In this document: one piece after another, positions 2,791 to 45,508 of the stretch
How positions within the stretch are numbered: the first letter of the stretch is position 1
How the letters are laid out: each line of letters starts with the position of its first letter
Assembly (NCBI GenBank): GCA_964506785.1
Contig: CAZDME010000001.1
Span: 1 to 61,085, forward strand
DNA from: an uncultured bacterium
Lineage (GTDB): Bacteria > CAZDME01 > JAYEMH01
Length of the DNA: 61,085 bases
Direction: 5' to 3'
Position numbers and translations under genes: made by a program
The notes under the pieces: generated by a model
What the model was told of the DNA's origin: nothing
What the model saw: only the letters and a program-made list of their open reading frames with translations
Database searches by the model: none

Positions 2791-2806
2791 TGTTTCACGT
2801 GAAACA
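2791..2806. promoter_or_regulatory. parS site (perfect 16-bp palindrome)
   Basis: TGTTTCACGTGAAACA, matching the ParB-binding consensus TGTTNCACGTGAAACA. Confidence 0.85.
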
Positions 2807-2808: not shown

Positions 2809-2883
2809 GTAGCCGATAGCTCATCGGTCATGGCTCATAGCTAAAATTGGCTATTGGCTCGTAGCTTATGGTTGATAGCTAAT
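2809..2883. repeat. family-A heptamer array
   Basis: gtagccgata gctcatc ggtcatg gctcata gctaaaa ttggcta ttggctc gtagctt atggttg atagcta. Confidence 0.8.
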
Positions 2884-3215: not shown

Positions 3216-3231
3216 TGTTTCACGTGAAACA
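3216..3231. promoter_or_regulatory. parS site (perfect)
   Basis: TGTTTCACGTGAAACA. Confidence 0.85.
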
Positions 3232-5059: not shown

Positions 5060-5075
5060 TGTTTCACGTGAAACA
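5060..5075. promoter_or_regulatory. parS site (perfect)
   Basis: TGTTTCACGTGAAACA. Confidence 0.85.
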
Positions 5076-6487: not shown

Positions 6488-6490
6488 GCA

Positions 6491-6660
6491 AATTTAGACA
6501 TTTTTGAACAAGTCTGGACAATTTTGGATGCCTGAAATTGAGAAATATTTCTTGGAAGAAAGGTTTTTTCGACCCGAAGAAACTCGGGCGAGAGCAACGC
6601 TTAAAACGACAAAAATGGACATATTTTGGCATTTTTGTACATATTTGGACAATTACTGGC
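6491..6660 (+). repeat. 10-nt-phased TGGACA-like repeats (family D, two clusters)
   Basis: tttagacatt tttgaacaag tctggacaat tttggatgcc (6491-6530). aaatggacat attttggcat ttttgtacat atttggacaa ttactggcat (about 6613-6662). Confidence 0.7.
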
Positions 6661-6707
6661 ATGGTTTCCTGAGAATCTTTCTGTTCTTTGCATTTGCTGA
6701 AGTTGCC

Positions 6708-6757
6708 TGTGGATAACCTGGAGACATCTGTGGATAACTTAATACATTTGTGGACTG
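6708..6757 (-). promoter_or_regulatory. DnaA-box trio
   Basis: TGTGGATAA at 6708-6716 and 6729-6737 (both 9/9 as the reverse complement of TTATCCACA). TGTGGACTG at 6749-6757 (7/9). Box starts are spaced 21 and 20 nt apart. Confidence 0.75.
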
Positions 6758-6780
6758 GGGTAGGCAAGTCTCAACTTTTC

Positions 6781-6830
6781 TGGACAAATTTGGACACTTC
6801 TGGACAAATTTGGACACTTTTGAAGACATA
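6781..6830 (+). repeat. tandem 2 x 20-bp (4 x 10-bp) TGGACA repeat
   Basis: tggacaaatt tggacacttc tggacaaatt tggacacttt, followed by a degenerate fifth unit tgaagacata. Lies immediately upstream of parA. Confidence 0.85.
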
Positions 6831-6847
6831 AAAGGGAGTTTTTTGTT

Positions 6848-7612
6848 GTGTCAAAAGTTTTTGCGGTAGCCAATCAAAAAGGGGGCGTTGGCAAAACCAC
6901 CACCGTTTTAGGCTTGGCGGCTTGTTTTGCTTTTGCCGGGAAAAAGGTTTTGGTGGTTGATTTTGACCCTCAGGGTCAGGCGACTTCTGGCCTGGGGCTG
7001 GAAAAGGATAAAATTTCCCGGACAGTTTATTCCTGTCTTTTTGAAATAACGCGGCCTTTGGCCCTGGCGCAGGAGACAAAGGTAAAAAACCTCAAAATTA
7101 TCCCTTCTAATATTGAGCTGGCCGGGGCTGAGGTGGAGTTGGTTGAAGTGCCGCAGAGGGAGGAACGCCTGCGGCGTTTAATCGAAAAAATCCGCCAGCG
7201 CTTTGACTTTGTTTTAATTGACTGCCCGCCATCTCTGGGGATATTGACGGTCAATGCTCTGGTGGCCGCCGATAGTGTTATTATTCCCGTCCAGTGCGAA
7301 TATTATGCCTTGGAAGGATTGAGCCAATTGGTAAACTCCATCAACCTGATCCAGGCCGGGCTTAATCCGCATCTATCAATCGAGGGAGTCGTTTTAACCA
7401 TGCATGATGTGCGCATTAACCTTTCCGCACAGGTAATAGATGAAGTTAGAAACTTTTTTCAGGAGAAGGTTTTTAAAGCGGTTGTTCCGCGCAATGTCCG
7501 CCTCGCCGAAGCACCCAGTTTTGGCCAGCCAATTATTCAATATGACCTCCGCTCAGCCGGGGCCGAAGCTTACCTGCGCCTGGCCAAGGAAATTTTAAAA
7601 AGATACAGATAA
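6848..7612 (+). CDS. parA: ParA/Soj chromosome partitioning ATPase
   Basis: 254 aa. GTG start, deviant Walker A KGGVGKTT, followed by parB. Confidence 0.93.
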   Translation: MSKVFAVANQKGGVGKTTTVLGLAACFAFAGKKVLVVDFDPQGQATSGLGLEKDKISRTVYSCLFEITRPLALAQETKVKNLKIIPSNIELAGAEVELVEVPQREERLRRLIEKIRQRFDFVLIDCPPSLGILTVNALVAADSVIIPVQCEYYALEGLSQLVNSINLIQAGLNPHLSIEGVVLTMHDVRINLSAQVIDEVRNFFQEKVFKAVVPRNVRLAEAPSFGQPIIQYDLRSAGAEAYLRLAKEILKRYR

Positions 7613-7665
7613 AAATTTACAGTATACAGATAACAATTAATGATTTAAGTTAACAGTTTACAGTT
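7603..7665 (+). repeat. family-C heptamer array (ACAG-type)
   Basis: atacaga taaaaat ttacagt atacaga taacaat taatgat ttaagtt aacagtt tacagtt. It starts inside the last codons of parA and contains the parA stop codon. Confidence 0.75.
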
Positions 7666-7684
7666 CGTGTTTAACCATAAACTG

Positions 7685-7792
7685 AAATAACGAGCGAACG
7701 ATATAACGGGAAACACGATAACGAGATAACGGACAACGGAATAACGTGATAACGAGCGATGAGATAACGTGATAACGGGGGACGTGATAACG
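7685..7792 (+). repeat. family-B array (nGATAACG units, 7-8-nt period), largest copy
   Basis: At least 13 consecutive units ending in ACG: gaaataacg agcgaacg atataacg ggaaacacg ataacg agataacg gacaacg gaataacg tgataacg ... tgataacg ggggacg tgataacg. Confidence 0.9.
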
Positions 7793-7810
7793 AAGTCGAG
7801 GAGGAAAAAC

Positions 7811-8653
7811 ATGGCTAGACAGGTTTTAGGACGGGGATTAAGTGCGCTTATCTCCCGAGAAAGCGCCGAAAAAAGGGAGGAGGTTCGCCAATTAAATATT
7901 AAAGATGTGGTTGCCAGTCAGTTTCAACCGCGCCAGGATTTTGACTCCAGACAACTTAATGAGTTGGTGACTTCCATTAAAGAAAAAGGGGTAATTCAGC
8001 CGATTCTAGTCCGTCCTCTGGGTGACAAATATGAATTAGTGGCCGGGGAACGGCGATGGCGGGCTACCAAAGAACTGGGCTGGAAAAAAATTCCGGCTAT
8101 GTTGAAAAATGTTTCCGATACCGAGGCCTTGGAGTTAACCTTAATTGAAAATCTGCAAAGGCAGGATTTAAATCCTATTGAGGAAGCCAAGGCCTATGAA
8201 CGTTTGCTCAAGGACTTTAAGCTCACCCAGGAAAAATTAGCCAGGCAAATTGGTAAAGAGCGGGTTTCTGTGGCTAACACCTTGAGACTCCTTAAATTGC
8301 CCCAGGCGATTAAAGAGGAGATTTCCCGGGGACGCCTTTCGGCGGGTCAGGCTCGGCCCTTGCTGTCTTTAAAGAATTCAGCTAAGCAAGAGGAGCTTGG
8401 AAAAAAAATTATAAAAAAGGGGTTGTCGGCCAGAGAAGTAGAACAAGTCGTTCAAAAAATGCTTTCTTCGGTGCGTTTTCAGCCGCGGCGGTTTAAAAGG
8501 AACACCCAGCTCCTGGAAATTGAGGAGAAATTGCGTCATATCTTTGGCACCCAGGTACGCCTTAGACAAAAGGGAAATAAAGGAAAGATTGAAATAGAAT
8601 TCTATTCTGCCGAGGATTTGGATAGGATTCTGGAAGTAATCAGACCGAAGTAG
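7811..8653 (+). CDS. parB: ParB/Spo0J partition protein
   Basis: ORF 7769-8653 trimmed to ATG 7811 (AGGAGG at 7799-7804). N-terminus MARQVLGRGLSALI, ParB box GERRWRA, HTH region. Confidence 0.92.
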   Translation: MARQVLGRGLSALISRESAEKREEVRQLNIKDVVASQFQPRQDFDSRQLNELVTSIKEKGVIQPILVRPLGDKYELVAGERRWRATKELGWKKIPAMLKNVSDTEALELTLIENLQRQDLNPIEEAKAYERLLKDFKLTQEKLARQIGKERVSVANTLRLLKLPQAIKEEISRGRLSAGQARPLLSLKNSAKQEELGKKIIKKGLSAREVEQVVQKMLSSVRFQPRRFKRNTQLLEIEEKLRHIFGTQVRLRQKGNKGKIEIEFYSAEDLDRILEVIRPK

Positions 8654-8661: not shown

Positions 8662-9615
8662 ATGAATTTATTAACGGTGCCCGCGAGTAGTTTAAAAAAA
8701 GAACATCCGGTAAAAATACCAATTCCTGATTGGCTGGTGAAAGAGGTTAGCTCCAAGCGTAATTTGGGTAGTCTGCCCAAAATTTTAAAGGAGGCTGGTC
8801 TTCGTACTGTTTGCCAGGCGGCCCGCTGTCCCAATATCGGCGAATGTTTTTCCCGGGGGACGGCCACCTTTTTAATTCTGGGCGATATTTGCCGCCGCCA
8901 ATGTCGTTTTTGTAGCATAAAAAAAAGGCCTTCCGGGTATTTACCCGTAGATAAGGATGAACCGGCACGGATCGCTCAAACAGTTCAGCAGCTCGGGCTT
9001 GGATATGTGGTGGTTACCTCAGTCAGCCGTGATGACCTGCCTGACGGAGGAGCCGAACATTTTGCCCGGACAATCAGAAAGATAAAAAGCCGCACCCCGG
9101 GGATAACGGTAGAGGTTTTAATCCCTGATTTTTCTGGCCATCTCGAGGCATTAAAAACGGTGGTTAAAGAAAGGCCCGAGGTAATTAATCATAATTTAGA
9201 GACGGTCGAATCTCTTTATCCGAAGGTTCGCCCGCAGGCGGATTATAAGCGCTCACTGGAGTTACTTAGAAGGATAAAGGGTCTGGATGCCCGGATTGTT
9301 ACCAAGTCAGGTTTAATCCTGGGGTTAGGAGAAGAAAAAGAAGAAATCCAAAAAGCCCTTAATGATTTACAGCAGGCTCAGGCGGATATTTTAACCTTAG
9401 GTCAGTATTTACAGCCGACGGTCAGGGAACTGGCTGTAGAGAAATATCTTACCCGGCAGGAATTTGCTTTTTGGCAGAAAGCAGCCGAGGCATTGGGTTT
9501 TCTTTTTGTCGCTTCGGGAAACCTGGTTCGCAGCTCATACAGGGCAGAAGAAGCCTATAAAAGAGCGTTATCCCGTTCGTCGTTATCTCGTTTTCAGGGT
9601 AACGATATAACGTGA
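8662..9615 (+). CDS. lipA: lipoyl synthase
   Basis: 317 aa. Cys clusters CQAARCPNIGEC and radical-SAM CRRQCRFC. The last ~15 codons are encoded by a family-B array. Confidence 0.93.
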   Translation: MNLLTVPASSLKKEHPVKIPIPDWLVKEVSSKRNLGSLPKILKEAGLRTVCQAARCPNIGECFSRGTATFLILGDICRRQCRFCSIKKRPSGYLPVDKDEPARIAQTVQQLGLGYVVVTSVSRDDLPDGGAEHFARTIRKIKSRTPGITVEVLIPDFSGHLEALKTVVKERPEVINHNLETVESLYPKVRPQADYKRSLELLRRIKGLDARIVTKSGLILGLGEEKEEIQKALNDLQQAQADILTLGQYLQPTVRELAVEKYLTRQEFAFWQKAAEALGFLFVASGNLVRSSYRAEEAYKRALSRSSLSRFQGNDIT

Positions 9616-9620
9616 TAACG
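9566..9620. repeat. family-B inverted arrays (CGTTATC units, then GATAACG units)
   Basis: cgttatc ccgttcgt cgttatct cgtttt, then cagg, then gtaacg atataacg tgataacg. Overlaps the 3' end and stop codon of lipA. Confidence 0.8.
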
Positions 9621-9661: not shown

Positions 9662-9690
9662 GACGAGATAACGGGATAACGAAAAAAACG
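9662..9690 (+). repeat. family-B array upstream of def
   Basis: gacg agataacg ggataacg aaaaaaacg. It ends 8 nt before the def ATG. Confidence 0.8.
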
Positions 9691-9698: not shown

Positions 9699-10199
9699 AT
9701 GAAAGGATTACGAATCTACAAATATGGAGAGCCGATATTACGCAAAAAATGTGCCCAAATAAAAGAAGTTACTGATGAAGTAGGAGAAACTCTTGCGGCG
9801 ATGAGCCGAACGATGTATGAATCCCAGGGGGTAGGATTAGCCGCGCCCCAGATTGGGCTGGGGAAACGCTTGATTGTTGTTGATATTGGCGATGGCCTCT
9901 GGGAATTGATGAATCCCAGAATTGTCTCCCGGCGGGGAGAAACTATTTCCCTGGAGGGATGTCTGAGTCTGCCAGGGATTACCGTAAATGTCAAACGTGC
10001 CAAGGAGGTTACTGTAGAGGCTTTAGAGAAAAAAGGGGAGAAGATAATGCTCGAAGCCAAAGGCCTATTTGCTTTCGCCCTGCAGCACGAAATTGACCAT
10101 CTGGACGGTGTTTTGATTATTGACTATCTTGAGAAAAAAGAGAAAAAGGCAGTTGAGGAAAAGTTAAAAAAGTGGTTAAAAGAAACACCAAAAATGTAG
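9699..10199 (+). CDS. def: peptide deformylase
   Basis: 166 aa. Motifs GVGLAAPQIG, EGCLS and QHEIDHL. Confidence 0.95.
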   Translation: MKGLRIYKYGEPILRKKCAQIKEVTDEVGETLAAMSRTMYESQGVGLAAPQIGLGKRLIVVDIGDGLWELMNPRIVSRRGETISLEGCLSLPGITVNVKRAKEVTVEALEKKGEKIMLEAKGLFAFALQHEIDHLDGVLIIDYLEKKEKKAVEEKLKKWLKETPKM

Positions 10200-10996
10200 G
10201 ACACAGAGAAAAACGGAGCCGGGTAAATATAATCCTCTTTGGGCCGGTTTCTTCCCGGCGCCTGGGGAAATCCTTAGGCATTAATCTTATCCCGCCCAAA
10301 ACCTGCTCTTTGGATTGTATCTATTGCCAGCTTGGCAGCACCCCCAAAACCTCGGTAAAGCGTTATTCTTATCTTTCCGCGAACGAAGTCGAGACAAACC
10401 TAAAAAGATTTTTGGCCAAAGGAGGACGGGCCGATTATCTTACTCTTTCCGGGGGGGGGGAACCCACTCTTAACGCTCAGATTGGAAAGATTATCAGGCG
10501 GATTAAAACAATAAGCAGACTGCCGGTAGCCGTACTTACCAACGCCACCCTTTTTACTTCCCCTAAGGTGCGGCGAGAATTGCTGGCGGCGGATTTAGTT
10601 TTGCCTTCTCTGGATGCCGCCCGCCAAGCAACCTTTAAAAAAATTAATCGCCCCCATCGCAGATTAAAGATTAAAAATATCATCCAGGGCTTGCAACTCT
10701 TTCGCCGTCAATTTAAGGGGAAATTGTGGCTGGAAATTATGTTGGTAAGAAATATAAACGACTCAAAAAAAGAGCTTGAAGCCTTAAACAAAGCCGTATT
10801 GGCCATTAAACCGGATAAGATTCAGTTAAATACCGTGGTCAGGGAGCCGGCGGAAAAATTTGCCCATCCACTGACCGTCAGCCAACTCCAGAAAACAAAG
10901 AAATTTTTTGGCGACCGCTGTGAAATAATCAGCGGGCGCAAAGATAAAAGGAAAAGAATGCTTAAAGCCCTCAAGCCAAATTATCACACTTCGTAA
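10172..10996 (+). CDS. radical SAM protein (function unknown)
   Basis: 274 aa. CSLDCIYC (CxxxCxxC) cluster. Overlaps def by 28 nt. Its last codons and TAA stop lie inside the REP hairpin. Confidence 0.8.
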   Translation: MVKRNTKNVGHREKRSRVNIILFGPVSSRRLGKSLGINLIPPKTCSLDCIYCQLGSTPKTSVKRYSYLSANEVETNLKRFLAKGGRADYLTLSGGGEPTLNAQIGKIIRRIKTISRLPVAVLTNATLFTSPKVRRELLAADLVLPSLDAARQATFKKINRPHRRLKIKNIIQGLQLFRRQFKGKLWLEIMLVRNINDSKKELEALNKAVLAIKPDKIQLNTVVREPAEKFAHPLTVSQLQKTKKFFGDRCEIISGRKDKRKRMLKALKPNYHTS

Positions 10997-11007
10997 GTGT
11001 GATAATT
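10979..11007. repeat. REP hairpin (RAYT-flanking, loop CGT)
   Basis: aattatcacactt-cgt-aagtgtgataatt, a 13-bp perfect stem. Confidence 0.9.
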
Positions 11008-11030: not shown

Positions 11031-11723
11031 ATGAAGAGCAAGGATATTAAAAAATTCGGCAGCACATTAGTTACGGGAGAAATTTACCATATTTTTAGTA
11101 AAAGCATCGCTGGTTTTAGAATATTTAAGCGGAAAGCGGAATTTAAAAGGATAAAAGAGATGCTTCAATATTATGTTTTTGAAAAACCTTCCATAAGATT
11201 TTCTTATTTTCTCCGGGCGCCTCAGAAAGAAAAAGAGAAATTCGTAGAAGCCGTTTCTAAAAATAATATTCAGAATAAAGGAAAAATTGTTAACATAGTT
11301 GCCTACTGTATTATGCCTACCCATATTCACTTAGTTCTGCAGCCTCTCAAGGAAAGGGGGATTTCCATATTTATGAAAAATCTTCTTGATAGCTACACGC
11401 GTTATTTTAATGTCAAATATAAAAGAAAAGGGCCTCTTTGGGAAGGAAGATTTAAAAGAGTTTGGGTCGGGTCAGAAAATCAACTCCTTCATCTTACCAG
11501 ATATATTCATTTAAACCCGGTTACTGCGGGGTTAGTTAAAAGGCCAGAGGAATGGTTTGCATCCTCCTTTAACGAATATATAGAAGGTGATAGAAAGGAT
11601 AAGCTTTGTAGATATGATGCACTTTTAAAGATTTCTCCAGAGTCCTATAAAAAATTTGTAAAAGAAAGAATTTTTTATCAGAAACAACTTGCAAAAATTA
11701 AGGAATTGACCTTTGATGTATAA
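11031..11723 (+). CDS. REP-associated tyrosine transposase (IS200/IS605 Y1 family, RAYT-like)
   Basis: 230 aa. HUH motif in CIMPTHIHLVLQP and catalytic-Tyr motif LTRYIHLNPV. Flanked by REP hairpins. Confidence 0.85.
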   Translation: MKSKDIKKFGSTLVTGEIYHIFSKSIAGFRIFKRKAEFKRIKEMLQYYVFEKPSIRFSYFLRAPQKEKEKFVEAVSKNNIQNKGKIVNIVAYCIMPTHIHLVLQPLKERGISIFMKNLLDSYTRYFNVKYKRKGPLWEGRFKRVWVGSENQLLHLTRYIHLNPVTAGLVKRPEEWFASSFNEYIEGDRKDKLCRYDALLKISPESYKKFVKERIFYQKQLAKIKELTFDV

Positions 11724-11728
11724 CCATT

Positions 11729-11753
11729 TTATCACACTTCGTAAGTGTGATAA
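11729..11753. repeat. REP hairpin (RAYT-flanking, loop CGT)
   Basis: ttatcacactt-cgt-aagtgtgataa, an 11-bp perfect stem. Confidence 0.9.
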
Positions 11754-11779
11754 GTTGGGAGGATTGAAACGGGAAAATT

Positions 11780-16496: not shown

Positions 16497-16502
16497 AAAA
16501 AT

Positions 16503-16543
16503 CGTTATTCATCTATCGTTATCTCGTGTATCTGTTCTTACGG
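16503..16543 (-). repeat. family-B array, reverse units (CGTTATC)
   Basis: cgttattcatctat cgttatct cgtgtatctgttcttacgg. Confidence 0.7.
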
Positions 16544-16573
16544 TGTGATACTTAGATAATGAAAGACTTGTCA

Positions 16574-16602
16574 TTTTATCACACTTACGAAGTGTGATAA
16601 AA
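16574..16602. repeat. REP hairpin (dispersed copy, loop ACG)
   Basis: ttttatcacactt-acg-aagtgtgataaaa, a 13-bp perfect stem. Confidence 0.9.
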
Positions 16603-16620
16603 TGTGTTTTGGCACATTTT

Positions 16621-16658
16621 AAACGTGATAACGAACAACGAAATAACGTGATAAAGCG
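16621..16658 (+). repeat. family-B array, forward units
   Basis: aaacg tgataacg aacaacg aaataacg tgataaagcg. It ends 4 nt before ATG 16663. Confidence 0.8.
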
Positions 16659-16662
16659 AAAA

Positions 16663-19450: not shown

Positions 19451-19492
19451 AAAACAGTTTACAGTTAACAGTGGACAGTGAACAGTCGGCAG
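19451..19492 (+). repeat. family-C heptamer array (six units ending in CAG)
   Basis: aaaacag tttacag ttaacag tggacag tgaacag tcggcag. Confidence 0.9.
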
Positions 19493-19644
19493 AAAAACAC
19501 TGCATAATTCAGAAGATGTGTTTGTGCTAGAAAAAAATTTACTTTTTCGTTTATGCAATTTTGCCTTAGCCTGCCCCTGTGTGTCGGTAGGCAGTCCACA
19601 GAGAAAGATAAATAAAATTGCAATTGTTCTAATCATTCCCCCAT

Positions 19645-19673
19645 TTTTATCACACTTACGAAGTGTGATAAAA
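19645..19673. repeat. REP hairpin (dispersed copy, loop ACG)
   Basis: ttttatcacactt-acg-aagtgtgataaaa. Confidence 0.9.
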
Positions 19674-19693
19674 GAGTGATATTTTTTGCTTTC

Positions 19694-19744
19694 AACGAGA
19701 TGCCGGGCAACGGGATAACGTGATAACGATATAACGAGATGACG
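19694..19744 (+). repeat. family-B array
   Basis: aacg agatgccgggcaacg ggataacg tgataacg atataacg agatgacg. Confidence 0.8.
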
Positions 19745-25717: not shown

Positions 25718-27181
25718 ATGGAATTAAACGAACTAACGGCTCATCAGCTCCGGGATAAAATCAAGAAGAAAGAAATTCAAGCGGCCGATATATTAGAAAG
25801 TGTTTTTCGAAGAATCAACCAGGTAGAAAAAAAAATTGCTGCCTTTATTTCGTTAGATAAAGAAAAAGCGGAAAAGGCTATTTTTTCTTTAGAAGAAGGA
25901 AAAAACATTAAAGGAGTTTCTTATCTTTACGCTATCCCCATGGCGGTTAAAGATAATATCTGCGTTAAAGATGGGAGGACAAGCTGTGCTTCGCGCATTT
26001 TATCTTCCTTCACCTCCCCTTATTCAGCGACAATAGTTGAACGATTGGAAGACTCCGGCGCAATTATCTTTGGGAAAACTAATCTTGACGAATTTGCCAT
26101 GGGGTCTTCTACAGAAACTTCCTGTTTCGGCCCCAGCCGCAATCCCTGGGATATTGAGGTTATTCCGGGCGGGTCAAGCGGCGGCAGCGCAGCTGCTGTG
26201 GCTGCCGATGAAACGATTGCCGCGATTGGTTCAGATACCGGCGGCTCTATCCGCCAGCCAGCGGCTTGCTGTGGTGTGGTCGGGATGAAACCCAGTTATG
26301 GTTTAGTTTCTCGATATGGACTGGTTGCCTTTGCCTCCTCCCTGGATCAAATCGGCCCGATAACTAAGGATGTTTATGACGCCGCTTTGCTTTTAAATGT
26401 CCTGGCTGGCTCGGATGGGCGCGATTCTACTTCCATCCCCAATTTACCCAATAGAGATTATACCCGGGCTCTCCTGACCGGGGTAAAAGGCATGAAAATC
26501 GGCCTGCCTAAAGAATATTTTTTGCCCGGTTTGAGCAGTGAGGTGGAAAAGGCAGTAAGGGAGGCGGTCGGTTTATTAGAAAAATCAGGGGCGGAAATTA
26601 AAGAAATTTCTCTTCCTCATACCGAATATTGTCTGCCGGTTTATTATATCATCGCTACCGCTGAAGCCAGTGCCAACCTGGCGCGTTATGACGGCGTCAG
26701 GTACGGATATAGAAAAGAAGGGAAGATGAATTTGACAGCGATGTATGAAAAGACTCGCGGTGAAGGCTTTGGCGAGGAGGTAAAGCGGAGGATTATGCTG
26801 GGAACTTATGCCCTTTCGGCCGGATATTATGAAGCTTATTATCTCAAGGCACAGAAAGTAAGGGCCCTGATAAAAAACGATTTTGATGAGGCCTTTAAAA
26901 AAGTAGAAGCGATTATTACCCCGACGATACCCACCCCGGCCTTTAAAATCGGAGAAAAAACCGATGATCCCCTGCAAATGTATCTTTCTGATATTTTTAC
27001 TATTTCGGTTAATTTAGCCGGGCTTCCGGCTATTTCTATTCCCTGCGGCTTCAGCCAAGCCGGCCTTCCCATTGGCCTGCAGATTATCGGGCCTTATTTG
27101 GGGGAGGAGAAAGTTTTAAAACTGGCTTATGCCTATGAGAAAGAGACCGATTGGCATCAACGGAAACCCAGGCTTTCGTGA
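25718..27181 (+). CDS. gatA: Asp/Glu-tRNA amidotransferase subunit A
   Basis: 487 aa. Amidase signature GGSSGGSAAAVAA. Confidence 0.95.
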   Translation: MELNELTAHQLRDKIKKKEIQAADILESVFRRINQVEKKIAAFISLDKEKAEKAIFSLEEGKNIKGVSYLYAIPMAVKDNICVKDGRTSCASRILSSFTSPYSATIVERLEDSGAIIFGKTNLDEFAMGSSTETSCFGPSRNPWDIEVIPGGSSGGSAAAVAADETIAAIGSDTGGSIRQPAACCGVVGMKPSYGLVSRYGLVAFASSLDQIGPITKDVYDAALLLNVLAGSDGRDSTSIPNLPNRDYTRALLTGVKGMKIGLPKEYFLPGLSSEVEKAVREAVGLLEKSGAEIKEISLPHTEYCLPVYYIIATAEASANLARYDGVRYGYRKEGKMNLTAMYEKTRGEGFGEEVKRRIMLGTYALSAGYYEAYYLKAQKVRALIKNDFDEAFKKVEAIITPTIPTPAFKIGEKTDDPLQMYLSDIFTISVNLAGLPAISIPCGFSQAGLPIGLQIIGPYLGEEKVLKLAYAYEKETDWHQRKPRLS

Positions 27182-27221
27182 AAAAGGAATAAGTTAATAA
27201 TGAGCAACGAAACCCCCGCCA

Positions 27222-27250
27222 TTTTATCACACTTACGAAGTGTGATAAAA
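27222..27250. repeat. REP hairpin (dispersed copy, loop ACG)
   Basis: ttttatcacactt-acg-aagtgtgataaaa, with flanks cccgcca and gtgtggtgttttctgctttaaacg. Confidence 0.9.
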
Positions 27251-27270
27251 GTGTGGTGTTTTCTGCTTTA

Positions 27271-27329
27271 AACGAGACAATGTGATAACGGGACAACGAG
27301 ATAACGAGCAACGGGATAACGGGATGACG
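27271..27329 (+). repeat. family-B array containing the gatB start codon
   Basis: aacg agacaatg tgataacg ggacaacg agataacg agcaacg ggataacg ggATGacg. Confidence 0.85.
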
Positions 27330-28802
27330 AATTATCAAGTAGTTATTGGTTTAGAGGTTCATCTTCAGTTAAAAACGGAATCAAAAATTTTCTGCGGCTG
27401 CTCGGCTGAATATAACCTTGAACCTAATATTCAGGGTTGCCCAGTTTGTGCGGGTTTGCCCGGGGTGCTCCCGGTTTTAAACGAAAAAGCCAAACGCTTT
27501 ACTTTAATGGCGGCACTGGCCTTAAATTGTAAAATAAATCCCTTTTCCAGTTTTTCCCGCAAGCAATATTTTTATCCGGATTTGCCTAAGAATTACCAGA
27601 TTTCCCAGTACGATTTACCCGTGGCCGAAAATGGAAGCCTGGAAGTTGAAATAGGAGGGAAAATAAAGAAAATCGGGATTACCAGGGTTCATTTAGAAGA
27701 GGATGCCGGAAAACTTTTGCACTATATCGGCTCGCGGGCCTTGGAGCACAGCCTGGTTGATTTAAACCGTTCCGGACTGCCTCTTTTGGAAATTGTCAGC
27801 GAGCCGGATATGTATTCCTCGGAGGAGGCCTTTAGCTATCTGCAAGAGTTAAAGTCACTCATCCAGTATATCGGGGTAAGCGATTGTAATATGGAAGAAG
27901 GCAGCCTTCGCTGCGATGCCAATATTTCCATAAGAAAGGACAAAACCCATGTCTTGGGGGTAAAAACAGAACTTAAAAACATGAATTCTTTTCGGGCGGT
28001 AAAAAAAGCCCTGGATTATGAGGTAAAAAGGCAAAAAGAAGTTTTATCTCAAAGGAAAAAAATTGTCCAGGAAACCAGGCTCTGGGATGAAAAAGAAGGA
28101 ATTACTCATCCAATGCGGCGCAAGGAAGAAGCTCACGATTACCGTTATTTCCCCGAGCCGGACTTATTGCCCCTCTTGACAGATAAGGCGGAAATAGAAG
28201 AAATAAAAAAGACCCTTCCGGAGCTGCCGGCCCAACGAAGAAAGCGCTTCCAGGGCCAATATAGTTTATCGGCTTACGATGTTTCTGTTATTACCTCTGA
28301 GAAAGAATTGTCGGATTTTTATGAAGATGTCGTTAAGGAATATGCCAAGAAAGAAAAATTAAAACCAGAGATTCACAAAAAAATAGCCAACTGGATTATG
28401 GGGGATTTTAAAGCCCGGCTTAAAGACCAAAAGATTAGTGTCCTTGAATTACCAGTTAGCGCCCGTCATTTATCTGATTTAGTTAAATTGATTGAAGACG
28501 GGAAAATTAACCTCCGGCAGGCTAAAGAGGTTTTAAAAGAAATGATGGAAGAAAAATCTAAAGAAACGCCTTTACCCTCTGTTATCATCGGACAGAAAGG
28601 GGTGGGGCAAATTAGCGACCAAGGTGCCATAAAAGAGATTATCCGAGAAGTGATTGATGAAAATAAAAAAGCAGCTGAACGCTTGCGGCAGGGGGAGGAA
28701 AAAGTTTTAGGATATCTCATCGGGCAGGTAATGAAGAAAACTCAAGGGAAGGCGAACCCCAGCTTAATTAATAAAATTTTGAAAGAAGAACTTGCTTCGT
28801 AA
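27324..28802 (+). CDS. gatB: Asp/Glu-tRNA amidotransferase subunit B
   Basis: ORF 27282-28802 trimmed to ATG 27324 (MTNYQVVIGLEVHLQL, a typical GatB N-terminus). Confidence 0.95.
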   Translation: MTNYQVVIGLEVHLQLKTESKIFCGCSAEYNLEPNIQGCPVCAGLPGVLPVLNEKAKRFTLMAALALNCKINPFSSFSRKQYFYPDLPKNYQISQYDLPVAENGSLEVEIGGKIKKIGITRVHLEEDAGKLLHYIGSRALEHSLVDLNRSGLPLLEIVSEPDMYSSEEAFSYLQELKSLIQYIGVSDCNMEEGSLRCDANISIRKDKTHVLGVKTELKNMNSFRAVKKALDYEVKRQKEVLSQRKKIVQETRLWDEKEGITHPMRRKEEAHDYRYFPEPDLLPLLTDKAEIEEIKKTLPELPAQRRKRFQGQYSLSAYDVSVITSEKELSDFYEDVVKEYAKKEKLKPEIHKKIANWIMGDFKARLKDQKISVLELPVSARHLSDLVKLIEDGKINLRQAKEVLKEMMEEKSKETPLPSVIIGQKGVGQISDQGAIKEIIREVIDENKKAAERLRQGEEKVLGYLIGQVMKKTQGKANPSLINKILKEELAS

Positions 28803-30788: not shown

Positions 30789-30865
30789 CTGATTGCTCAT
30801 AGCTCTTAGTGGATAACTAACTAATCTTTTTTCGTCTAACCATGAGCCATGAGCAAAGAGCAAAC
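30789..30865. repeat. family-A heptamer element, homologous to 1981-2053
   Basis: ctgattgctcatagctcttagtgg, then a spacer, then taaccatgagccatgagcaaagagcaaac. Confidence 0.8.
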
Positions 30866-30885: not shown

Positions 30886-30920
30886 CAAACTGTAAACTGT
30901 CCACTGTACACTGTTAACTG
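30886..30920 (-). repeat. family-C heptamer array, inverted orientation (units ending in CTG)
   Basis: caaactg taaactg tccactg tacactg ttaactg. This is the reverse complement of the CAG-type units at 19451-19492. Confidence 0.88.
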
Positions 30921-30932
30921 GAAACTTAACCC

Positions 30933-32665: not shown

Positions 32666-32708
32666 CGTTATCCCGTTGTTCGTTATTTCGTCAACGAGAT
32701 AACGGGAT
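32666..32708. repeat. family-B inverted arrays
   Basis: cgttatc ccgttgtt cgttattt cgtc, then aacg agataacg ggata. Confidence 0.8.
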
Positions 32709-32774: not shown

Positions 32775-32809
32775 ACGAGAAAACGAGATAACGGGATAAC
32801 GCAATAACG
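32775..32809 (+). repeat. family-B array upstream of ctpA
   Basis: acg agaaaacg agataacg ggataacg caataacg. Confidence 0.85.
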
Positions 32810-36306: not shown

Positions 36307-36347
36307 CGAAATAACGTGATAACGAGCAACGATATAACGAGATAACG
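36307..36347 (+). repeat. family-B array
   Basis: cgaaataacg tgataacg agcaacg atataacg agataacg, preceded by gtgaatg gtggaat (family E). Confidence 0.88.
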
Positions 36348-36379
36348 ATTAAGGAGATAGCGAGTTTGAGGAAAAAACC

Positions 36380-37048: not shown

Positions 37049-37107
37049 TGCCGGTGAATAGTGCATGGTGAAAACGAGATAACGAAATAACGAGGAACGA
37101 GATAATG
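37049..37107 (+). repeat. family-E (GTGAATn) units followed by a family-B array
   Basis: tgccggtgaatagtgcatggtg, then gaaaacg agataacg aaataacg aggaacg agataatg. Confidence 0.85.
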
Positions 37108-37120: not shown

Positions 37121-38755
37121 ATGAATAAAGATTTGATTTTTTATGTAATCGGCGGTTTGGGATTGTTTATCTACGGTATTCACCTGATGGGCATCGGTTT
37201 GCAAAAGGCGGCGGCGAATCGGATGCGAAGAATCTTAGGATCTTTAACCAGAAATGCCTTCACCGGAGTCTTGGTGGGCACGGGAATAACGGCCATCATT
37301 CAAAGCAGCAGCGCCACCACTGTCATGTTAGTTGGTTTTGTTAATGCCGGCCTGATGACTTTGAAACAATCCCTGGGCGTAATTTTAGGAGCAAATATTG
37401 GGACCACTATTACCGCCCAGCTTATTGCCTTCAAACTAACCGACTATGCCCTGCCGCTCATTGGGCTGGGCATGTTGACTATGCTTTTTGCCAAAAAGAA
37501 AACCCACAAGTCTTTTGGAGAATTTATGTTGGGTTTTGGTATTTTATTTTTGGGCTTAAAATTTCTGACCCAAAGCGTCAAACCCTTAGGGTCTCTCCCC
37601 CAGGTAAGAGAAGTCTTTATTTCATTCAGCACCAATCCCTTTTTGGGCATATTGGCCGGGGCAATTGTTACCGCTCTGGTTCAAAGCAGCAGTGTTACCA
37701 CTGGTATTGTTTTAGCTTTAGCCGTGGGTGGCTTGATTGATTTAAACGGGGCAATTTATGTTATCTTAGGCTGTAACATCGGTACCTGCATTACCGCTTT
37801 GATTGCCAGTATCGGGACAAGCATCTCGGCTCGTCGGACAGCTTTAGCTCACGTGATTTTTAACGTTGTAGGGATACTGATATTTCTACCGTTTTTATCC
37901 CAATTCAGCCGTCTCATCAGCCTGACTTCGACTAATGTCATGCGCCAATGCGCTAATGCTCATACGGTTTTCAATGTGGGTATAACCTTAATATTTCTTC
38001 CTCTGGTTGGTCTTTTTGCCCGGATTATCCCCCGTCTTATTCCGGGGAGAGAAGTGGAAATCGAATTTGGGCCTAAGTATCTGGAGAGGCATCTTTTGAA
38101 TACTCCATCTCTGGCTTTGCGGGTAGCTACAGAAGAAATCGTCCGCACCTTGAAAATGACCCGCTTAATGGTTAACCAAAGCATGCAGGGGTTTTTTCAT
38201 GACGACGCCCGGGCTTTAGTTAAGGTAGAAAGAGGCGAAGAGGCCGTTGATAATCTGCAGGAAGCAGTGACGGATTATTTAATGGAGTTGATGCAAAGAG
38301 AGCTGAACGAAGAAGAGTCGCGAAAAATTCCGGCTTTGCTTCACAACATAAATGATGTGGAACGTATCGGCGACCACGCGGAAAATTTAGCCGAACTGGC
38401 CGAGAGAAAAATTGAGTGTAAACTCCCCTTTTCTTCAGAGGCAATTAAGGAATTGCATGGGATTCATCATGAATTGGAGAAGATGACCGAAGCAACAATC
38501 CAGGCCTTAGAGCGGAATGATTTAAAAAAAGCCGAAGAGGTTTTGGAAAATGAAGAGCTTATTAACCGCCTCCGCGATAAATTAAAAGAAAATCATATCA
38601 GCCGCCTGGAAGAAAATAAATGTTTGGTTTTGTCAGGGATTGTTTTTTTGGACACTATCAGTAATTTTGAAAAAATTGCTGACCATCTGACCAATATTGT
38701 TCAGGCGGTTGCCGACGCTTTACAATGGGAAAGAAAAAAAACAGAAATGCGATAA
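37121..38755 (+). CDS. Na/Pi cotransporter family protein with PhoU-like domain
   Basis: 544 aa. Duplicated QSSSATT / QSSSVTT motifs and C-terminal PhoU-like repeats. The TAA stop lies inside a gcgaTAAcg unit. Confidence 0.9.
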   Translation: MNKDLIFYVIGGLGLFIYGIHLMGIGLQKAAANRMRRILGSLTRNAFTGVLVGTGITAIIQSSSATTVMLVGFVNAGLMTLKQSLGVILGANIGTTITAQLIAFKLTDYALPLIGLGMLTMLFAKKKTHKSFGEFMLGFGILFLGLKFLTQSVKPLGSLPQVREVFISFSTNPFLGILAGAIVTALVQSSSVTTGIVLALAVGGLIDLNGAIYVILGCNIGTCITALIASIGTSISARRTALAHVIFNVVGILIFLPFLSQFSRLISLTSTNVMRQCANAHTVFNVGITLIFLPLVGLFARIIPRLIPGREVEIEFGPKYLERHLLNTPSLALRVATEEIVRTLKMTRLMVNQSMQGFFHDDARALVKVERGEEAVDNLQEAVTDYLMELMQRELNEEESRKIPALLHNINDVERIGDHAENLAELAERKIECKLPFSSEAIKELHGIHHELEKMTEATIQALERNDLKKAEEVLENEELINRLRDKLKENHISRLEENKCLVLSGIVFLDTISNFEKIADHLTNIVQAVADALQWERKKTEMR

Positions 38756-38770
38756 CGAAAATTTCCGCCA

Positions 38771-38797
38771 TTTTTCACACTTACGAAGTGTGATAAA
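38771..38797. repeat. REP hairpin (dispersed copy, slightly degenerate, loop ACG)
   Basis: tttttcacactt-acg-aagtgtgataaa. The left arm lacks one A. Confidence 0.8.
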
Positions 38798-38818
38798 GGT
38801 GTGATAAAATCTGCTTTT

Positions 38819-38877
38819 AACGGGACAACAAGTAACGAAATGACATGATAACGAGATAACGGGATGGCGTGATAACG
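38819..38877 (+). repeat. family-B array upstream of fhs
   Basis: aacg ggacaacaagtaacg aaatgacatgataacg agataacg ggatggcg tgataacg. Confidence 0.85.
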
Positions 38878-42200: not shown

Positions 42201-42267
42201 GGATTCGTGAATGGTAAATCGTGAATAGTGCAAACGAGATAACGTGATAACGGGAAACGGGATAACG
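42201..42267 (+). repeat. family-E heptamers followed by a family-B array
   Basis: ggattcgtga atggtaaatc gtgaatagtg, then caaacg agataacg tgataacg ggaaacg ggataacg. It ends 4 nt before ATG 42272. Confidence 0.88.
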
Positions 42268-45371: not shown

Positions 45372-45409
45372 CGTTATTTCGTTATCTCGTTGCTCGTTAT
45401 ATCGTTGCC
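45372..45409 (-). repeat. family-B array, reverse units
   Basis: cgttattt cgttatct cgttgct cgttatat cgttgcc. Confidence 0.88.
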
Positions 45410-45441
45410 CGCTCTCTCGCTGAAAGCAGAAAACCTCATAC

Positions 45442-45470
45442 TTTTATCACACTTACGAAGTGTGATAAAA
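45442..45470. repeat. REP hairpin (dispersed copy; flanks inverted, loop still ACG on the + strand)
   Basis: ttttatcacactt-acg-aagtgtgataaaa. The flanks gaaagcagaaaacctcatac and aggcggaggg are the reverse complement of the flanks at the other copies. Confidence 0.9.
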
Positions 45471-45508
45471 AGGCGGAGGGTTCGTTATATTGGGGAAGGA
45501 AACACATC

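What the first reader, a model, noticed from the sequence alone, without database searches (positions are those of the whole stretch)
16501..16660. Composite palindromic element: REP hairpin, conserved flanks and inverted arrays of GATAACG-type units (five dispersed copies)
Five intergenic loci carry the same hairpin TTTTATCACACTT-ACG-AAGTGTGATAAAA: 16574-16602, 19645-19673, 27222-27250, 38771-38797 and 45442-45470. The stem is a 13-bp perfect palindrome, except that the 38771 copy has lost one base. The flanks are conserved too. Upstream is CC(C)CGCCA, and downstream is GTGTGnT..TTTCTGCTTTnAACG, which runs straight into a tandem array of 7-8-nt units ending in (A)ACG (consensus nGATAACG). At 16503-16658, and in mirror form at 45372-45470, an array of the reverse-complement unit CGTTATC sits on the other side. 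The whole ~160-nt element is therefore a large imperfect inverted repeat around the hairpin, resembling a MITE or BIME. The unit GTGATAACG shares GTGATAA with the hairpin arm AAGTGTGATAA, which suggests the arrays are iterated copies of a hairpin half-site. I do not recall a described REP/BIME class with this hairpin-plus-octamer-array layout, but I cannot search databases.
Basis: seen in the sequence. Interest (0 to 1): 0.85.

Follow-up and report, generated by a model that had tools for sequence, protein, structure and literature searches.

The report
REP hairpins docked on octamer arrays
The repeated hairpin is the cognate palindrome (REP) of a single-copy tyrosine transposase encoded in the same window. 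It spreads as a unit of about 75 bases that sits at the upstream edge of separate, more numerous 8-base tandem repeats in front of genes, so this is a known kind of selfish DNA in an unusual arrangement in an uncultured bacterium.

Summary
The 13-3-13 hairpin occurs at all five stated sites (0 expected by chance). Two more copies flank the gene at 11031-11723. That gene encodes an HUH/Y1 transposase whose best structural match is E. coli TnpA-REP bound to a REP hairpin. Relatives of this gene in four other lineages (59-67% identity in Omnitrophota-like relatives, 35% in a CPR bacterium) are flanked by the same kind of hairpin, with compensatory stem changes. One relative sits at the same chromosomal position. 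This is therefore a REP/RAYT system.

The dispersed unit is about 75 nt: [ATAACG]AAAnCCCCGCCA, hairpin, nnGGnTnTTTTCTGCTTTnAACG. The (nGATAACG)n arrays are a separate class. There are 15 blocks in 11 of 32 intergenic spacers, and only five touch a hairpin. Forward arrays end 0-28 nt before start codons. Reverse arrays begin 4-8 nt after stop codons. Strains differ by one 8-nt unit. Related genomes carry other 7-nt arrays without hairpins.

Every dispersed hairpin still abuts an array (P about 0.002). Five of seven copies have AACG-type direct repeats (TAACG in three) at both borders, which suggests targeted insertion. The "large inverted repeat" and "iterated half-site" ideas are not supported. 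I rate it a new variant of a known kind, of moderate interest.

The parts
11031..11723 (+). RAYT-like HUH/Y1 tyrosine transposase gene (230 aa), one copy in the window
   Evidence: Pfam Y1_Tnp, E 3.8e-9. NCBIfam REP_Tyr_transpos scores 62.5 bits, below the cut-off of 80. PDB 4ER8 TnpA-REP by sequence, E 7.5e-4, with the HUH motif (HIHLV) and the Tyr motif (RYIHLNPV) aligned. AlphaFold model pLDDT 83; top Foldseek hit is 4ER8, E 9.9e-7. Only one tblastn hit in the window.
10981..11006 (.). REP hairpin 24 nt upstream of the RAYT start, overlapping the last 16 nt of ORF 10172-10996 (loop CGT on + strand)
   Evidence: DNA fold -11.7 kcal/mol, z -8.7.
11727..11755 (.). REP hairpin 3 nt after the RAYT stop codon (loop CGT on + strand)
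   Evidence: DNA fold z -5.4. Some strains carry a 16-nt duplication inside it.
16554..16628 (+). Dispersed REP unit with divergent flanks (hairpin 16574-16602), in the pal-ybgF spacer
   Evidence: nhmmer E 4.4e-16.
19625..19699 (+). Dispersed REP unit (hairpin 19645-19673), in the tolB-tolQ spacer
   Evidence: nhmmer E 6e-19.
27202..27276 (+). Dispersed REP unit (hairpin 27222-27250), in the gatA-gatB spacer
   Evidence: nhmmer E 1.3e-23.
38750..38824 (+). Dispersed REP unit (hairpin 38770-38798, one base deleted). Its left ATAACG unit contains the stop codon of the Na/Pi transporter gene
   Evidence: nhmmer E 3.3e-19.
45416..45490 (-). Dispersed REP unit in inverted orientation (hairpin 45442-45470), upstream of clpB
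   Evidence: nhmmer E 1e-19 on the - strand.
16626..16654 (+). (nGATAACG)n array abutting the REP unit; ends 8 nt before the start codon
19705..19744 (+). Array abutting the REP unit
27271..27329 (+). Array abutting the REP unit; its last unit GGATGACG holds the gatB ATG (27324)
38818..38877 (+). Degenerate array abutting the REP unit; ends 15 nt before the FTHFS start
   Evidence: TRF period 8, 7.6 copies.
45372..45419 (-). Reverse-oriented array abutting the inverted REP unit; begins 4 nt after the stop codon
7687..7793 (+). Array with no hairpin (about 12 units), upstream of parB
9566..9620 (.). Inverted pair of arrays forming a hairpin over the end of ORF 8662-9615; no REP
   Evidence: DNA fold z -3.0.
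9663..9682 (+). Short array with no hairpin, 16 nt before the def start
16505..16527 (-). Reverse units 8 nt after the pal stop. They pair locally with degenerate forward units at about 16548-16562
32666..32706 (.). Inverted pair of arrays forming a hairpin 4 nt after a stop codon; no REP
   Evidence: (z -4.7).
32778..32809 (+). Array with no hairpin, 22 nt before a start codon
36309..36364 (+). Array with no hairpin, 15 nt before a start codon
37069..37092 (+). Array with no hairpin. Strains L020 and L021 carry one extra 8-nt unit here. The related genome L016 has a REP hairpin in this same mgtC-Na/Pi spacer
42233..42267 (+). Array with no hairpin, 4 nt before a start codon

Best explanation
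The hairpin is the cognate REP of the single-copy RAYT-type Y1 (HUH) transposase encoded at 11031-11723.

**Shown**
- The gene is bracketed by two copies of the hairpin.
- Homologous genes in other lineages are bracketed by hairpins of the same design, whose stems covary.
- The gene is inherited at a fixed chromosomal position.
- The dispersed copies share about 75 nt: one ATAACG unit, AAAnCCCCGCCA, the 13-3-13 hairpin, then a T-rich linker ending in (T/A)AACG.

**Inferred**
- The RAYT binds the folded hairpin in single-stranded DNA and copies or moves the 75-nt unit, as described for E. coli TnpA-REP and the IS200/IS605 transposases.
- Insertion is directed to (T)AACG. The (nGATAACG)n arrays offer many such sites, so units accumulate at arrays.

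**The arrays are a separate class.** They are slippage-prone short tandem repeats that occupy start-codon-proximal leaders in forward orientation and stop-codon-proximal positions in reverse orientation. They most likely act, if at all, at the RNA level: as unstructured leaders with stops in all frames, or as 3' hairpins when paired with an inverted array.

**Likely local effect.** Once inserted between co-directional genes, the REP stem-loop with its T-rich tail probably acts as an RNA 3'-end stabiliser or attenuator, as enterobacterial REPs do.
For: **RAYT identity**
- Sequence and family matches.
- Structure: pLDDT 83, and the best PDB match is 4ER8, 'REP associated tyrosine transposase bound to a REP hairpin', E 9.9e-7, ahead of ISDra2 and IS608 TnpA.

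**Hairpins at both ends of the gene**
-.

**Same design around homologues**
- L014: 67% identity, same neighbours (radical SAM upstream, spermine synthase downstream).
- L015: 59% identity. L010/L001: 35% identity, a CPR bacterium. L019 (homologue P0008, 57% identity): stem CCCACCT-ACG-AGGTGGG.
- Across 15 hairpins, 90% of cells are paired and 7 of 13 pairs change on both sides. The covariation score is 0.367 against 0.151, and 0 of 500 shuffles reach it.

**One repeated unit**
- The linker occurs only next to hairpins.
- nhmmer finds five full units and two bare hairpins, and nothing else, in the window.
- The same unit occurs in L009 and L011.

**Arrays are independent**
- Array blocks lie in 11 of 32 spacers; six of those spacers have no hairpin.
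- Syntenic relatives L016 and L017 have other 7-nt arrays, and GATACG arrays, without hairpins.
- Strains differ by a one-unit indel at 37077.

**Association is real**
- All five dispersed hairpins lie in array-bearing spacers, P = 0.0023. The join is always flush at (A/T)AACG.
- AACG-type direct repeats (TAACG in three, AACG in one, a degenerate ACG/GCG in one) flank 5 of 7 units.
- In the mgtC-Na/Pi spacer the window has an array only, while L016 has a REP hairpin plus one or two units.
Against: - Only seven or eight composite copies are available, and no genome-wide census was possible. The species is absent from the genome collection, and the metagenome scan returned few contigs.
- No presence/absence polymorphism of a REP unit was seen among strains of 99.4-99.97% identity. 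Recent mobility is therefore not shown.
- If units landed at random AACG sites inside arrays, several units should often lie to their left. Exactly one (5 of 7) or none (2 of 7) is seen. This fits 'the left unit belongs to the element' or 'arrays grow from the element' as well as it fits targeting.
- The protein scores below NCBIfam's RAYT cut-off.
- The two gene-flanking hairpins have the same loop orientation, not the inverted orientation that defines classical RAYT loci.
- The REP lacks the GTAG/CGTC tag of the described REP superfamilies.
- Any RNA-level role is untested.
Confidence: 0.7

Rival explanations
1. The arrays are produced by the element. Repeated RAYT nicking at the element's terminal TAACG, followed by slippage or template switching, reiterates 8-nt units outward from the REP. 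Arrays without hairpins are sites where the REP core was later excised.
For: - Arrays always lie on the linker side and start flush with the linker's AACG, with only one unit on the other side.
- In the 10.8-kb locus L011, GATAACG arrays occur only next to the two REP units, while other spacers carry different repeats.
- Two strains of 99.8% identity lose synteny inside an array after the third unit, and the left-flank unit shows a cluster of changes.
- Hairpin-free arrays often begin with AAACG-AGATAACG, like the REP-linked ones.
Against: - Six of the 11 array-bearing spacers in the window have no hairpin and no trace of the linker.
- Relatives carry analogous 7-nt arrays of unrelated units (CAGTAAT, GAATAGT, GATACG) where no REP is nearby. 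Array formation is therefore a general trait of the lineage.
- The one-unit indel at 37077 lies in a hairpin-free array, which fits plain slippage.
Confidence: 0.12
2. The composite is mainly a selected cis-regulatory RNA module rather than selfish DNA. The stem-loop with the U-rich tail UUUUCUGCUUUU ends or protects the upstream transcript, and the unstructured purine-rich array, with stop codons in all frames, serves as the leader for the downstream gene. The transposase link is historical only.
For: - Orientation bias: 4 of 5 units in the window, both units in the L009/L011 locus and the L016 copy read hairpin, then array, then start codon.
- Forward arrays end -6 to 28 nt from start codons in 9 of 11 cases. 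Reverse arrays begin 4-8 nt after stop codons.
- Two hairpins are flagged as terminator-like.
- The array is predicted to be unpaired.
- Analogous heptamer repeats next to start codons were proposed as post-transcriptional sites in Beggiatoaceae (PMC4679880).
Against: - Terminator-like sites in the scanned region are at chance level: 6 found against 5.0 expected.
- The T-rich tract begins 8-12 nt after the stem, and the stem is A/T-rich.
- One unit lies inside the gatA-gatB operon spacer.
- Orthologous spacers in L014, L016 and L017 lack both parts, so the module is dispensable.
- No Rfam family matches.
- This reading does not explain the hairpins bracketing the transposase gene in five lineages.
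Confidence: 0.25
3. It is a MITE of a classical (DDE) transposon, with terminal inverted repeats and a TAACG target-site duplication.
For: AACG-type direct repeats (TAACG in three) flank 5 of 7 units. The left flank is C-rich and the right flank is G/T-rich.
Against: - Flank complementarity is no better than with shuffled flanks, and RNAalifold keeps only the core stem, so there are no terminal inverted repeats.
- No DDE transposase with matching ends lies in the window.
- The only transposase carrying these hairpins at its ends is a Y1 enzyme.
Confidence: 0.04
4. The palindrome is a double-stranded operator for a dimeric regulator, or a cluster of DnaA-box-like sites (TGTGATAA against TGTGGATAA), because the window lies next to oriC.
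For: It is a perfect 13-3-13 palindrome, it resembles the DnaA box apart from one missing base, and the window starts at dnaA/oriC.
Against: - Across lineages the stems change in sequence but keep their pairing. That points to a folded single strand, not a fixed duplex site.
- The genes beside the copies have unrelated functions: pal/ybgF, tolQ, gatB, FTHFS, clpB.
- True DnaA boxes are present elsewhere in the window with the full 9-mer.
Confidence: 0.03

Closest known systems
REP/RAYT systems (Nunvar 2010, PMC2817692; Bertels & Rainey 2011, PMC3116915; E. coli TnpA-REP structure 4ER8)
   Same: - A single-copy HUH/Y1 transposase gene is bracketed by short palindromes that also occur dispersed in intergenic DNA.
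- Hairpin and protein co-vary between lineages.
- The gene is inherited at a fixed locus.
- The structural best match is TnpA-REP.
   Different: - The protein is 230 aa with extra N- and C-terminal helices, and scores below the NCBIfam RAYT cut-off.
- The stem is A/T-rich, 13 bp and perfectly symmetrical.
- There is no GTAG or CGTC tag.
- The gene-flanking copies share loop orientation instead of being inverted.
- Dispersed copies are singlets, not REPIN doublets or BIMEs.
- Each dispersed copy carries a fixed T-rich linker and sits against an octamer array.
- The host is an uncultured Ratteibacteria/Omnitrophota-like bacterium.
[quoted passage not shown]
   Same: Some REP families are always found inside a particular repeated sequence. 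In Thermomicrobium roseum the target palindrome also occurs hundreds of times without a REP, just as the arrays here occur without hairpins.
   Different: Those targets are short palindromes. Here the partner is a direct tandem array of 8-nt units, and the REP sits at its upstream edge with AACG-type direct repeats on both sides.
Intergenic heptamer tandem repeats: TAACTGA repeats of Beggiatoaceae, Cyanobacteria and Bacteroidetes (MacGregor 2015, PMC4679880); cyanobacterial STRR sequences (from my own knowledge)
   Same: Short direct tandem repeats of a few to a dozen units, confined to intergenic DNA. Most lie within a few nucleotides upstream of start codons, often without a clear Shine-Dalgarno sequence. 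Different unit sequences occur in related genomes.
   Different: - The unit is 8 nt (with 7-nt variants), (A/G/T)GATAACG.
- Reverse-oriented copies sit right after stop codons and pair with forward copies.
- The arrays are linked to a REP family.
- The phylum is different.
IS200/IS605 single-strand transposition (IS608, ISDra2; from my own knowledge of Ton-Hoang, Barabas, Dyda and Chandler's work)
   Same: A Y1 enzyme recognises a subterminal hairpin and inserts 3' of a fixed 4-5-nt target without duplicating it. The element's own end carries a short cleavage sequence. AACG|unit...AACG| fits that layout.
   Different: There is one symmetrical hairpin instead of distinct left and right ends. 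The proposed target and the element end share the same short AACG-type sequence. There is no passenger gene, and no biochemical data exist.

Membership tests
RAYT (REP-associated tyrosine transposase) | HUH motif and catalytic Tyr on an IS200/IS605-type fold, closer to TnpA-REP than to IS transposases | tested here: met
   HIHLV and RYIHLNPV align to 4ER8. Foldseek top hit is 4ER8, E 9.9e-7, TM (target) 0.66, ahead of ISDra2 and IS608. Pfam Y1_Tnp.
RAYT (REP-associated tyrosine transposase) | Passes the curated NCBIfam equivalog model NF047646 | tested here: not met
   62.5 bits against a cut-off of 80. It is a distant subfamily.
RAYT (REP-associated tyrosine transposase) | The gene is flanked by two REPs that also occur dispersed in the genome | tested here: met
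   Hairpins at 10981-11006 and 11727-11755, plus five dispersed copies.
RAYT (REP-associated tyrosine transposase) | The flanking REPs are in inverted orientation (Nunvar 2010) | tested here: inconclusive
   The stems are perfect palindromes, so only the loop gives orientation. Both loops read CGT on the + strand, which is direct orientation.
RAYT (REP-associated tyrosine transposase) | Single copy, vertically inherited, co-evolving with its REP | tested here: met
   One tblastn hit in the window. All contigs carrying the exact protein are syntenic. The 67% homologue sits between the same neighbours. Stems covary across the clade. Whole-genome copy number could not be tested.
REP superfamilies of Di Nocera 2013 | An unpaired GTAG or CGTC tag at one foot of the stem | tested here: not met
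   The feet read CCGCCA and GTGTGG, with no GTAG or CGTC on either strand.
REPIN | Two REPs in inverted orientation at a fixed short distance, forming a longer hairpin | tested here: not met
   All window copies are singlets, and the nearest neighbours are more than 700 nt apart. Only L012 shows two adjacent hairpins, and they are in tandem.
BIME | Alternating REP orientations separated by defined linker motifs | tested here: not met
   There is one REP per site.
MITE | Terminal inverted repeats and a target-site duplication | tested here: inconclusive
   AACG-type direct repeats flank 5 of 7 units, but flank complementarity equals that of shuffled flanks.
Intergenic short tandem repeats (STRR / TAACTGA type) - the arrays only | Direct tandem copies of a 7-nt unit, intergenic, mostly just upstream of start codons | tested here: met
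   46 units: 39 of 8 nt and 7 of 7 nt. 11 arrays against 0.055 expected. 9 of 11 forward arrays end 28 nt or less from a start codon. The unit length differs from the described heptamers (8 against 7).
Rfam RNA families | A match to a curated covariance model | tested here: not met
   The only hit above gathering score in the window is an unrelated c-di-GMP-I riboswitch. An E-value scan of 27100-27400 gives only a chance mir-232 hit, E 0.2.
Intrinsic terminator | A G+C-rich stem immediately followed by a U-run | tested here: inconclusive
   Two of the five hairpins pass a loose scan, but total sites are at chance level, 6 against 5.0. The stem is A/T-rich and the T-tract is offset by 8-12 nt.

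The most novel reading that the evidence does not exclude
This RAYT clade inserts its 75-nt REP unit 3' of the pentanucleotide TAACG in single-stranded DNA. The genome's (nGATAACG)n leader arrays then act as landing pads for it, or are even seeded and extended by it. The target rule of a RAYT, which has never been defined in vivo, could then be read directly from the genome. A selfish element would also be coupled to a genome-wide class of start-codon-proximal repeats that may tune translation in a candidate phylum.
Probability: 0.25. Interest if true: 0.65.

Novelty: new variant of a known kind. Interest (0 to 1): 0.45.

Why it matters
REP/RAYT systems have been worked out almost entirely in Proteobacteria. 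How RAYTs choose insertion sites remains unknown.

- **A large, mostly uncultured clade.** The protein search returned 3,197 relatives, many from Omnitrophota-like genomes and at least one from a CPR bacterium. Across this clade the top of the hairpin, C(T/C)T-NNN-A(A/G)G, is kept at protein identities of 35-67%.
- **A concrete prediction.** In this genome the dispersed unit has sharp borders, AACG-type direct repeats (TAACG at best) and a constant partner, the octamer array. Together these give a testable target rule.
- **A second repeat phenomenon.** The arrays show that start-codon-proximal short tandem repeats, so far described for Cyanobacteria, Beggiatoaceae and Bacteroidetes, also pervade this lineage and vary between strains.

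The overall category, REPs spread by a domesticated transposase, is already known.

Tried and rejected
1. **Genome-wide census.** The hairpin scan of genome contigs found only two CPR contigs, so the species is not in that collection. The metagenome scan gave five stretches, and viral contigs gave none. No copy number can be given.
2. **Extended palindrome.** Single-copy folds suggested flank pairing. Shuffled flanks fold equally well, and RNAalifold keeps only the 13-bp stem. Rejected.
3. **Arrays as iterated half-sites of the hairpin.** Only 7 of 46 units give GTGATAA. Rejected as unsupported.
4. **Search for filled against empty sites among strains.** Seven strain contigs of 99.4-99.97% identity show no gain or loss of a REP unit. 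They show only a 16-nt duplication in one hairpin, a TAGA indel, a one-unit array indel and a 1-nt deletion inside a gene.
5. **Orthologous spacers in relatives L014, L016 and L017.** These are too distant (GatB 68%, RAYT 67%) to define precise junctions. They show only that hairpins and arrays turn over independently.
6. **Promoter reading of the hairpin.** TTATCA-16-TAAAAT with TG occurs, but at chance level, and the last T of the -10 element is not conserved among copies. Not pursued.
7. **Organism name.** The protein clusters carry no names. The nearest named relatives are Candidatus Ratteibacteria (GatB, 68%) and Candidatus Omnitrophota (RAYT, 59%).
8. **Literature.** I found no paper on REPs or tandem repeats in these phyla. 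Elhai 2008, on small dispersed repeats nested in heptamer arrays in Nostoc, could not be retrieved. From memory it may be a further close analogue.
Full report
**1. Observation**

The palindrome TTTTATCACACTT-ACG-AAGTGTGATAAAA is present exactly at 16574, 19645, 27222 and 45442. A copy with one base deleted lies at 38770. None is expected by chance.

One is at 10981-11006 and the other at 11727-11755. Both have a CGT loop on the + strand, and they bracket the ORF at 11031-11723.

As single-stranded DNA, each tested hairpin context (both gene-flanking copies and the 16574 and 27222 copies) folds at -10 to -16 kcal/mol, with z-scores of -5 to -9.

Four of the five dispersed copies share about 20 nt on the left, (ATAACG)AAAnCCCCGCCA. 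They also share about 26 nt on the right, nnGGnTnTTTTCTGCTTTnAACG. The 16574 copy has diverged flanks. A profile of this 75-nt unit finds the five units and the two bare hairpins in the window, and nothing else. The linker TTTCTGCTTT is never found without a hairpin.

**2. The partner protein**

ORF 11031-11723 matches the following:

| Test | Result |
|---|---|
| Pfam Y1_Tnp | E 3.8e-9 |
| NCBIfam REP-associated tyrosine transposase | 62.5 bits, below the cut-off of 80 |
| PDB 4ER8 (E. coli TnpA-REP) by sequence | E 7.5e-4; HUH (HIHLV) and Tyr (RYIHLNPV) motifs aligned |
| AlphaFold model from 37 homologues | pLDDT 83 |
| Foldseek best PDB match | 4ER8, 'REP associated tyrosine transposase bound to a REP hairpin', E 9.9e-7, ahead of ISDra2 and IS608 transposases |

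The protein family is large. The search returned 3,197 hits, and many named ones come from Candidatus Omnitrophota.

The exact protein occurs only on syntenic contigs from several metagenomes. Its 67% homologue (L014) sits between the same radical-SAM and spermine-synthase genes. The gene is therefore single-copy as far as can be seen, and vertically inherited.

**3. Hairpin and protein go together across lineages**

| Locus | Identity to window protein | Flanking hairpin |
|---|---|---|
| L014 | 67% | AATCACACTT-CGT-AGGTGTGATT directly after the stop codon |
| L015 (Omnitrophota) | 59% | Same hairpin on both sides |
| L010/L001 (CPR Blackburnbacteria) | 35% | TATCACACTT-CGG-AAGTGTGATA and a variant on both sides |
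| L019 (homologue P0008) | 57% | CCCACCT-ACG-AGGTGGG, three copies |
| L018 (Tritonobacter, homologue P0043) | 55% | CCACCT-CGT-AGGTGG |

On an alignment of 15 such hairpins, 90% of cells pair, against 78% in shuffles. Seven of the 13 pairs show changes on both sides. The covariation score is 0.367 against 0.151, reached by 0 of 500 shuffles. Slid registers give 39-53% pairing.

Pairing, not sequence, is therefore conserved. That fits a folded single strand recognised by the transposase. It argues against a duplex operator or a DnaA-box reading.

**4. The arrays are a different thing**

Tandem Repeats Finder and a unit regex find (A/G/T)GATAACG arrays at 7687-7793, 9597-9620, 9663-9682, 16626-16654, 19705-19744, 27271-27329, 32778-32809, 36309-36364, 37069-37092, 38818-38877 and 42233-42267 on the + strand. 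Reverse units lie at 9566-9590, 16505-16527, 32666-32688 and 45372-45419.

- **Frequency.** There are 11 arrays of three or more units, against 0.055 in shuffles.
- **Spread.** They occupy 11 of the 32 spacers of 35 nt or more. Six of those spacers have no hairpin.
- **Position.** Forward arrays end -6 to 28 nt from the next start codon in 9 of 11 cases. The gatB ATG lies inside the last unit. Reverse arrays begin 4-8 nt after a stop codon. At 9566-9620 and 32666-32706 they pair with forward units into hairpins.
- **Unit make-up.** Of the units, 39 are 8 nt and 7 are 7 nt. Only 7 of 46 are TGATAACG.
- **Strain variation.** The multi-base indels lie in these repeats. They are one extra GATAACGG unit at 37077, TAGA at 16552, and a 16-nt duplication inside the 11727 hairpin. 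The only other indel is a 1-nt deletion inside a gene at 32035.
- **Relatives.** The syntenic loci L016 and L017 (GatB 68%; L017 is Candidatus Ratteibacteria) carry other 7-nt arrays in their spacers: CAGTAAT, GAATAGT and (A/G)GATACG. Their orthologous gatA-gatB spacers have no hairpin, and neither do the pal-ybgF and tolB-tolQ spacers of L014.

Abundant short tandem repeats in spacers are thus a trait of the lineage. The closest described analogue is the class of start-codon-proximal TAACTGA heptamer repeats of Beggiatoaceae, Cyanobacteria and Bacteroidetes (PMC4679880).

**5. Why the two parts meet**

All five dispersed hairpins lie in array-bearing spacers, P = 0.0023. The two units of the related locus L009/L011 do the same. 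The single dispersed hairpin in L016 is followed by one or two GATACG units. It lies in the mgtC-Na/Pi spacer, where the window has an array and no hairpin.

The join is always flush...TTTnAACG|nGATAACG.... In five of seven units an ATAACG or CAACG unit lies immediately to the left. Removing AAA...hairpin...TTTTAACG from those sites would restore a seamless array.

This layout resembles IS200/IS605 elements, which insert 3' of a fixed 4-5-nt target without duplicating it. That comparison rests on my knowledge of the IS608 and ISDra2 work. REP families that are always embedded in another repeat, with free copies of that repeat elsewhere, have also been reported (PMC3733652).

I therefore favour targeted insertion of a RAYT-mobilised 75-nt unit at (T)AACG, with the arrays serving as target-rich sites.

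The weak point is that there is always exactly one unit, or none, on the left. That would also fit a left unit belonging to the element, or arrays growing out of the element's end. Two 99.8%-identical strains (L009 and L011) lose synteny inside an array. They also differ by a cluster of changes in the left unit. These borders are therefore unstable, but this does not decide between the models.

**6. Ideas not upheld**

- *Large inverted repeat.* Flank pairing is no better than with shuffled flanks, z from -1.0 to +0.25. The consensus fold keeps only the 13-bp stem. At 16497-16662 the reverse units pair locally rather than with the right array in the centroid structure.
- *BIME or REPIN.* The copies are singlets.
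- *Known RNA family.* No Rfam family matches.
- *Terminator or promoter.* Pattern matches at the hairpin are at chance level.

**7. Likely function**

*Shown:* a REP/RAYT pair, a 75-nt repeated unit, independent slippage-prone arrays, and a non-random junction between the unit and the arrays.

*Inferred:* single-strand, Y1-type mobilisation with a TAACG preference. Local effects of the inserted stem-loop would be those known for enterobacterial REPs, namely mRNA 3' protection or attenuation between co-directional genes. That comparison is from my own knowledge. The orientation bias (hairpin, then array, then start codon, in 4 of 5 window copies plus 3 of 3 in related loci) and the T-rich tail are compatible with this, but it is untested.

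**8. Novelty and score**

The category is known. Several features are new:
- the host lineage;
- the untagged, A/T-rich, symmetrical REP;
- a large RAYT subfamily lying below the curated cut-off;
- the constant docking of the REP unit on octamer leader arrays with AACG-type (TAACG at best) borders.

I rate it a new variant of a known kind, with interest 0.45. The most novel reading not excluded is that the arrays are the RAYT's landing pads or its products. I give that a probability of about 0.25.

Noticed in passing
window 2791-2806, 3216-3231, 5060-5075 (perfect); 1961-1976, 3518-3533 (1-2 mismatches): Palindrome TGTTTCACGTGAAACA, which equals the canonical parS consensus (from my own knowledge). 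The copies cluster near dnaA and upstream of parA/parB (6848-8653). Five matches against 0.01 expected.
   Followed up: partly
window 6488-6847: An oriC-like spacer between trmE and parA. It holds DnaA boxes TGTGGATAA at 6708 and 6729 inside a 20-21-nt repeat, and a perfect 20-nt tandem repeat TTCTGGACAAATTTGGACAC at 6778-6819. dnaA lies at 115-1455 on the - strand.
   Followed up: partly
window 50702-50784 (+): c-di-GMP-I riboswitch aptamer (Rfam RF01051, 59.8 bits) in the long spacer upstream of the ORF at 51100-52383.
   Followed up: no
window 2816-2842 and 44038-44069; 7644-7665, 19453-19486 and 30887-30926; 2034-2050 and 30840-30854; about 36297, 37055 and 42205: Other families of intergenic 7-nt tandem repeats: ATAGCTC, AAACTGT/AACAGTT, CCATGAG and GTGAATRGT. 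The last often lies just upstream of GATAACG arrays and also occurs in the Ratteibacteria locus L017.
   Followed up: partly
window 11729; 16552; 37077 (against L004-L008, L020, L021): The multi-base indels among strains of 99.4-99.97% identity fall in the repeats. They are a 16-nt duplication (TATCACACTTCGTAAG) inside the RAYT-flanking hairpin, a TAGA indel in degenerate array units, and one extra GATAACGG unit.
   Followed up: yes
L009 (reverse complement) 4795 / L011 10521; L009 (reverse complement) 1158-1164 / L011 6885-6891: Two contigs of 99.8% identity lose all similarity inside an array after its third unit. The ATAACG unit left of another REP is replaced by AAGGACT, four changes within 7 nt.
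   Followed up: partly
window 16587-16589, 19658-19660, 27235-27237, 38783-38785, 45455-45457 against 10993-10995 and 11740-11742: The 3-nt loop reads ACG on the + (leading, coding) strand in all five dispersed copies, including the 45442 copy whose flanks are inverted. It reads CGT in both RAYT-flanking copies. This could be a loop flip or a strand-specific constraint. There are too few copies to test.
   Followed up: no
window 27324; 38756-38758; 9613-9615: Array units supply coding signals. The gatB ATG lies in the unit GGATGACG. The stop codons of the Na/Pi transporter gene and of ORF 8662-9615 lie inside ATAACG/TGATAACG units. Forward units carry stops in all three frames over three units.
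   Followed up: partly
L018 10741-10772: In Candidatus Tritonobacter the RAYT-flanking hairpin is followed about 35 nt later by three tandem 9-10-nt units (GAAATTCGTG). This is another case of a short array next to a hairpin of this RAYT clade.
   Followed up: no
window 52398-54932: A long purine-rich ORF (844 aa) that is internally repetitive, with AT skew up to 0.5 and many short tandem repeats. It was not examined.
   Followed up: no
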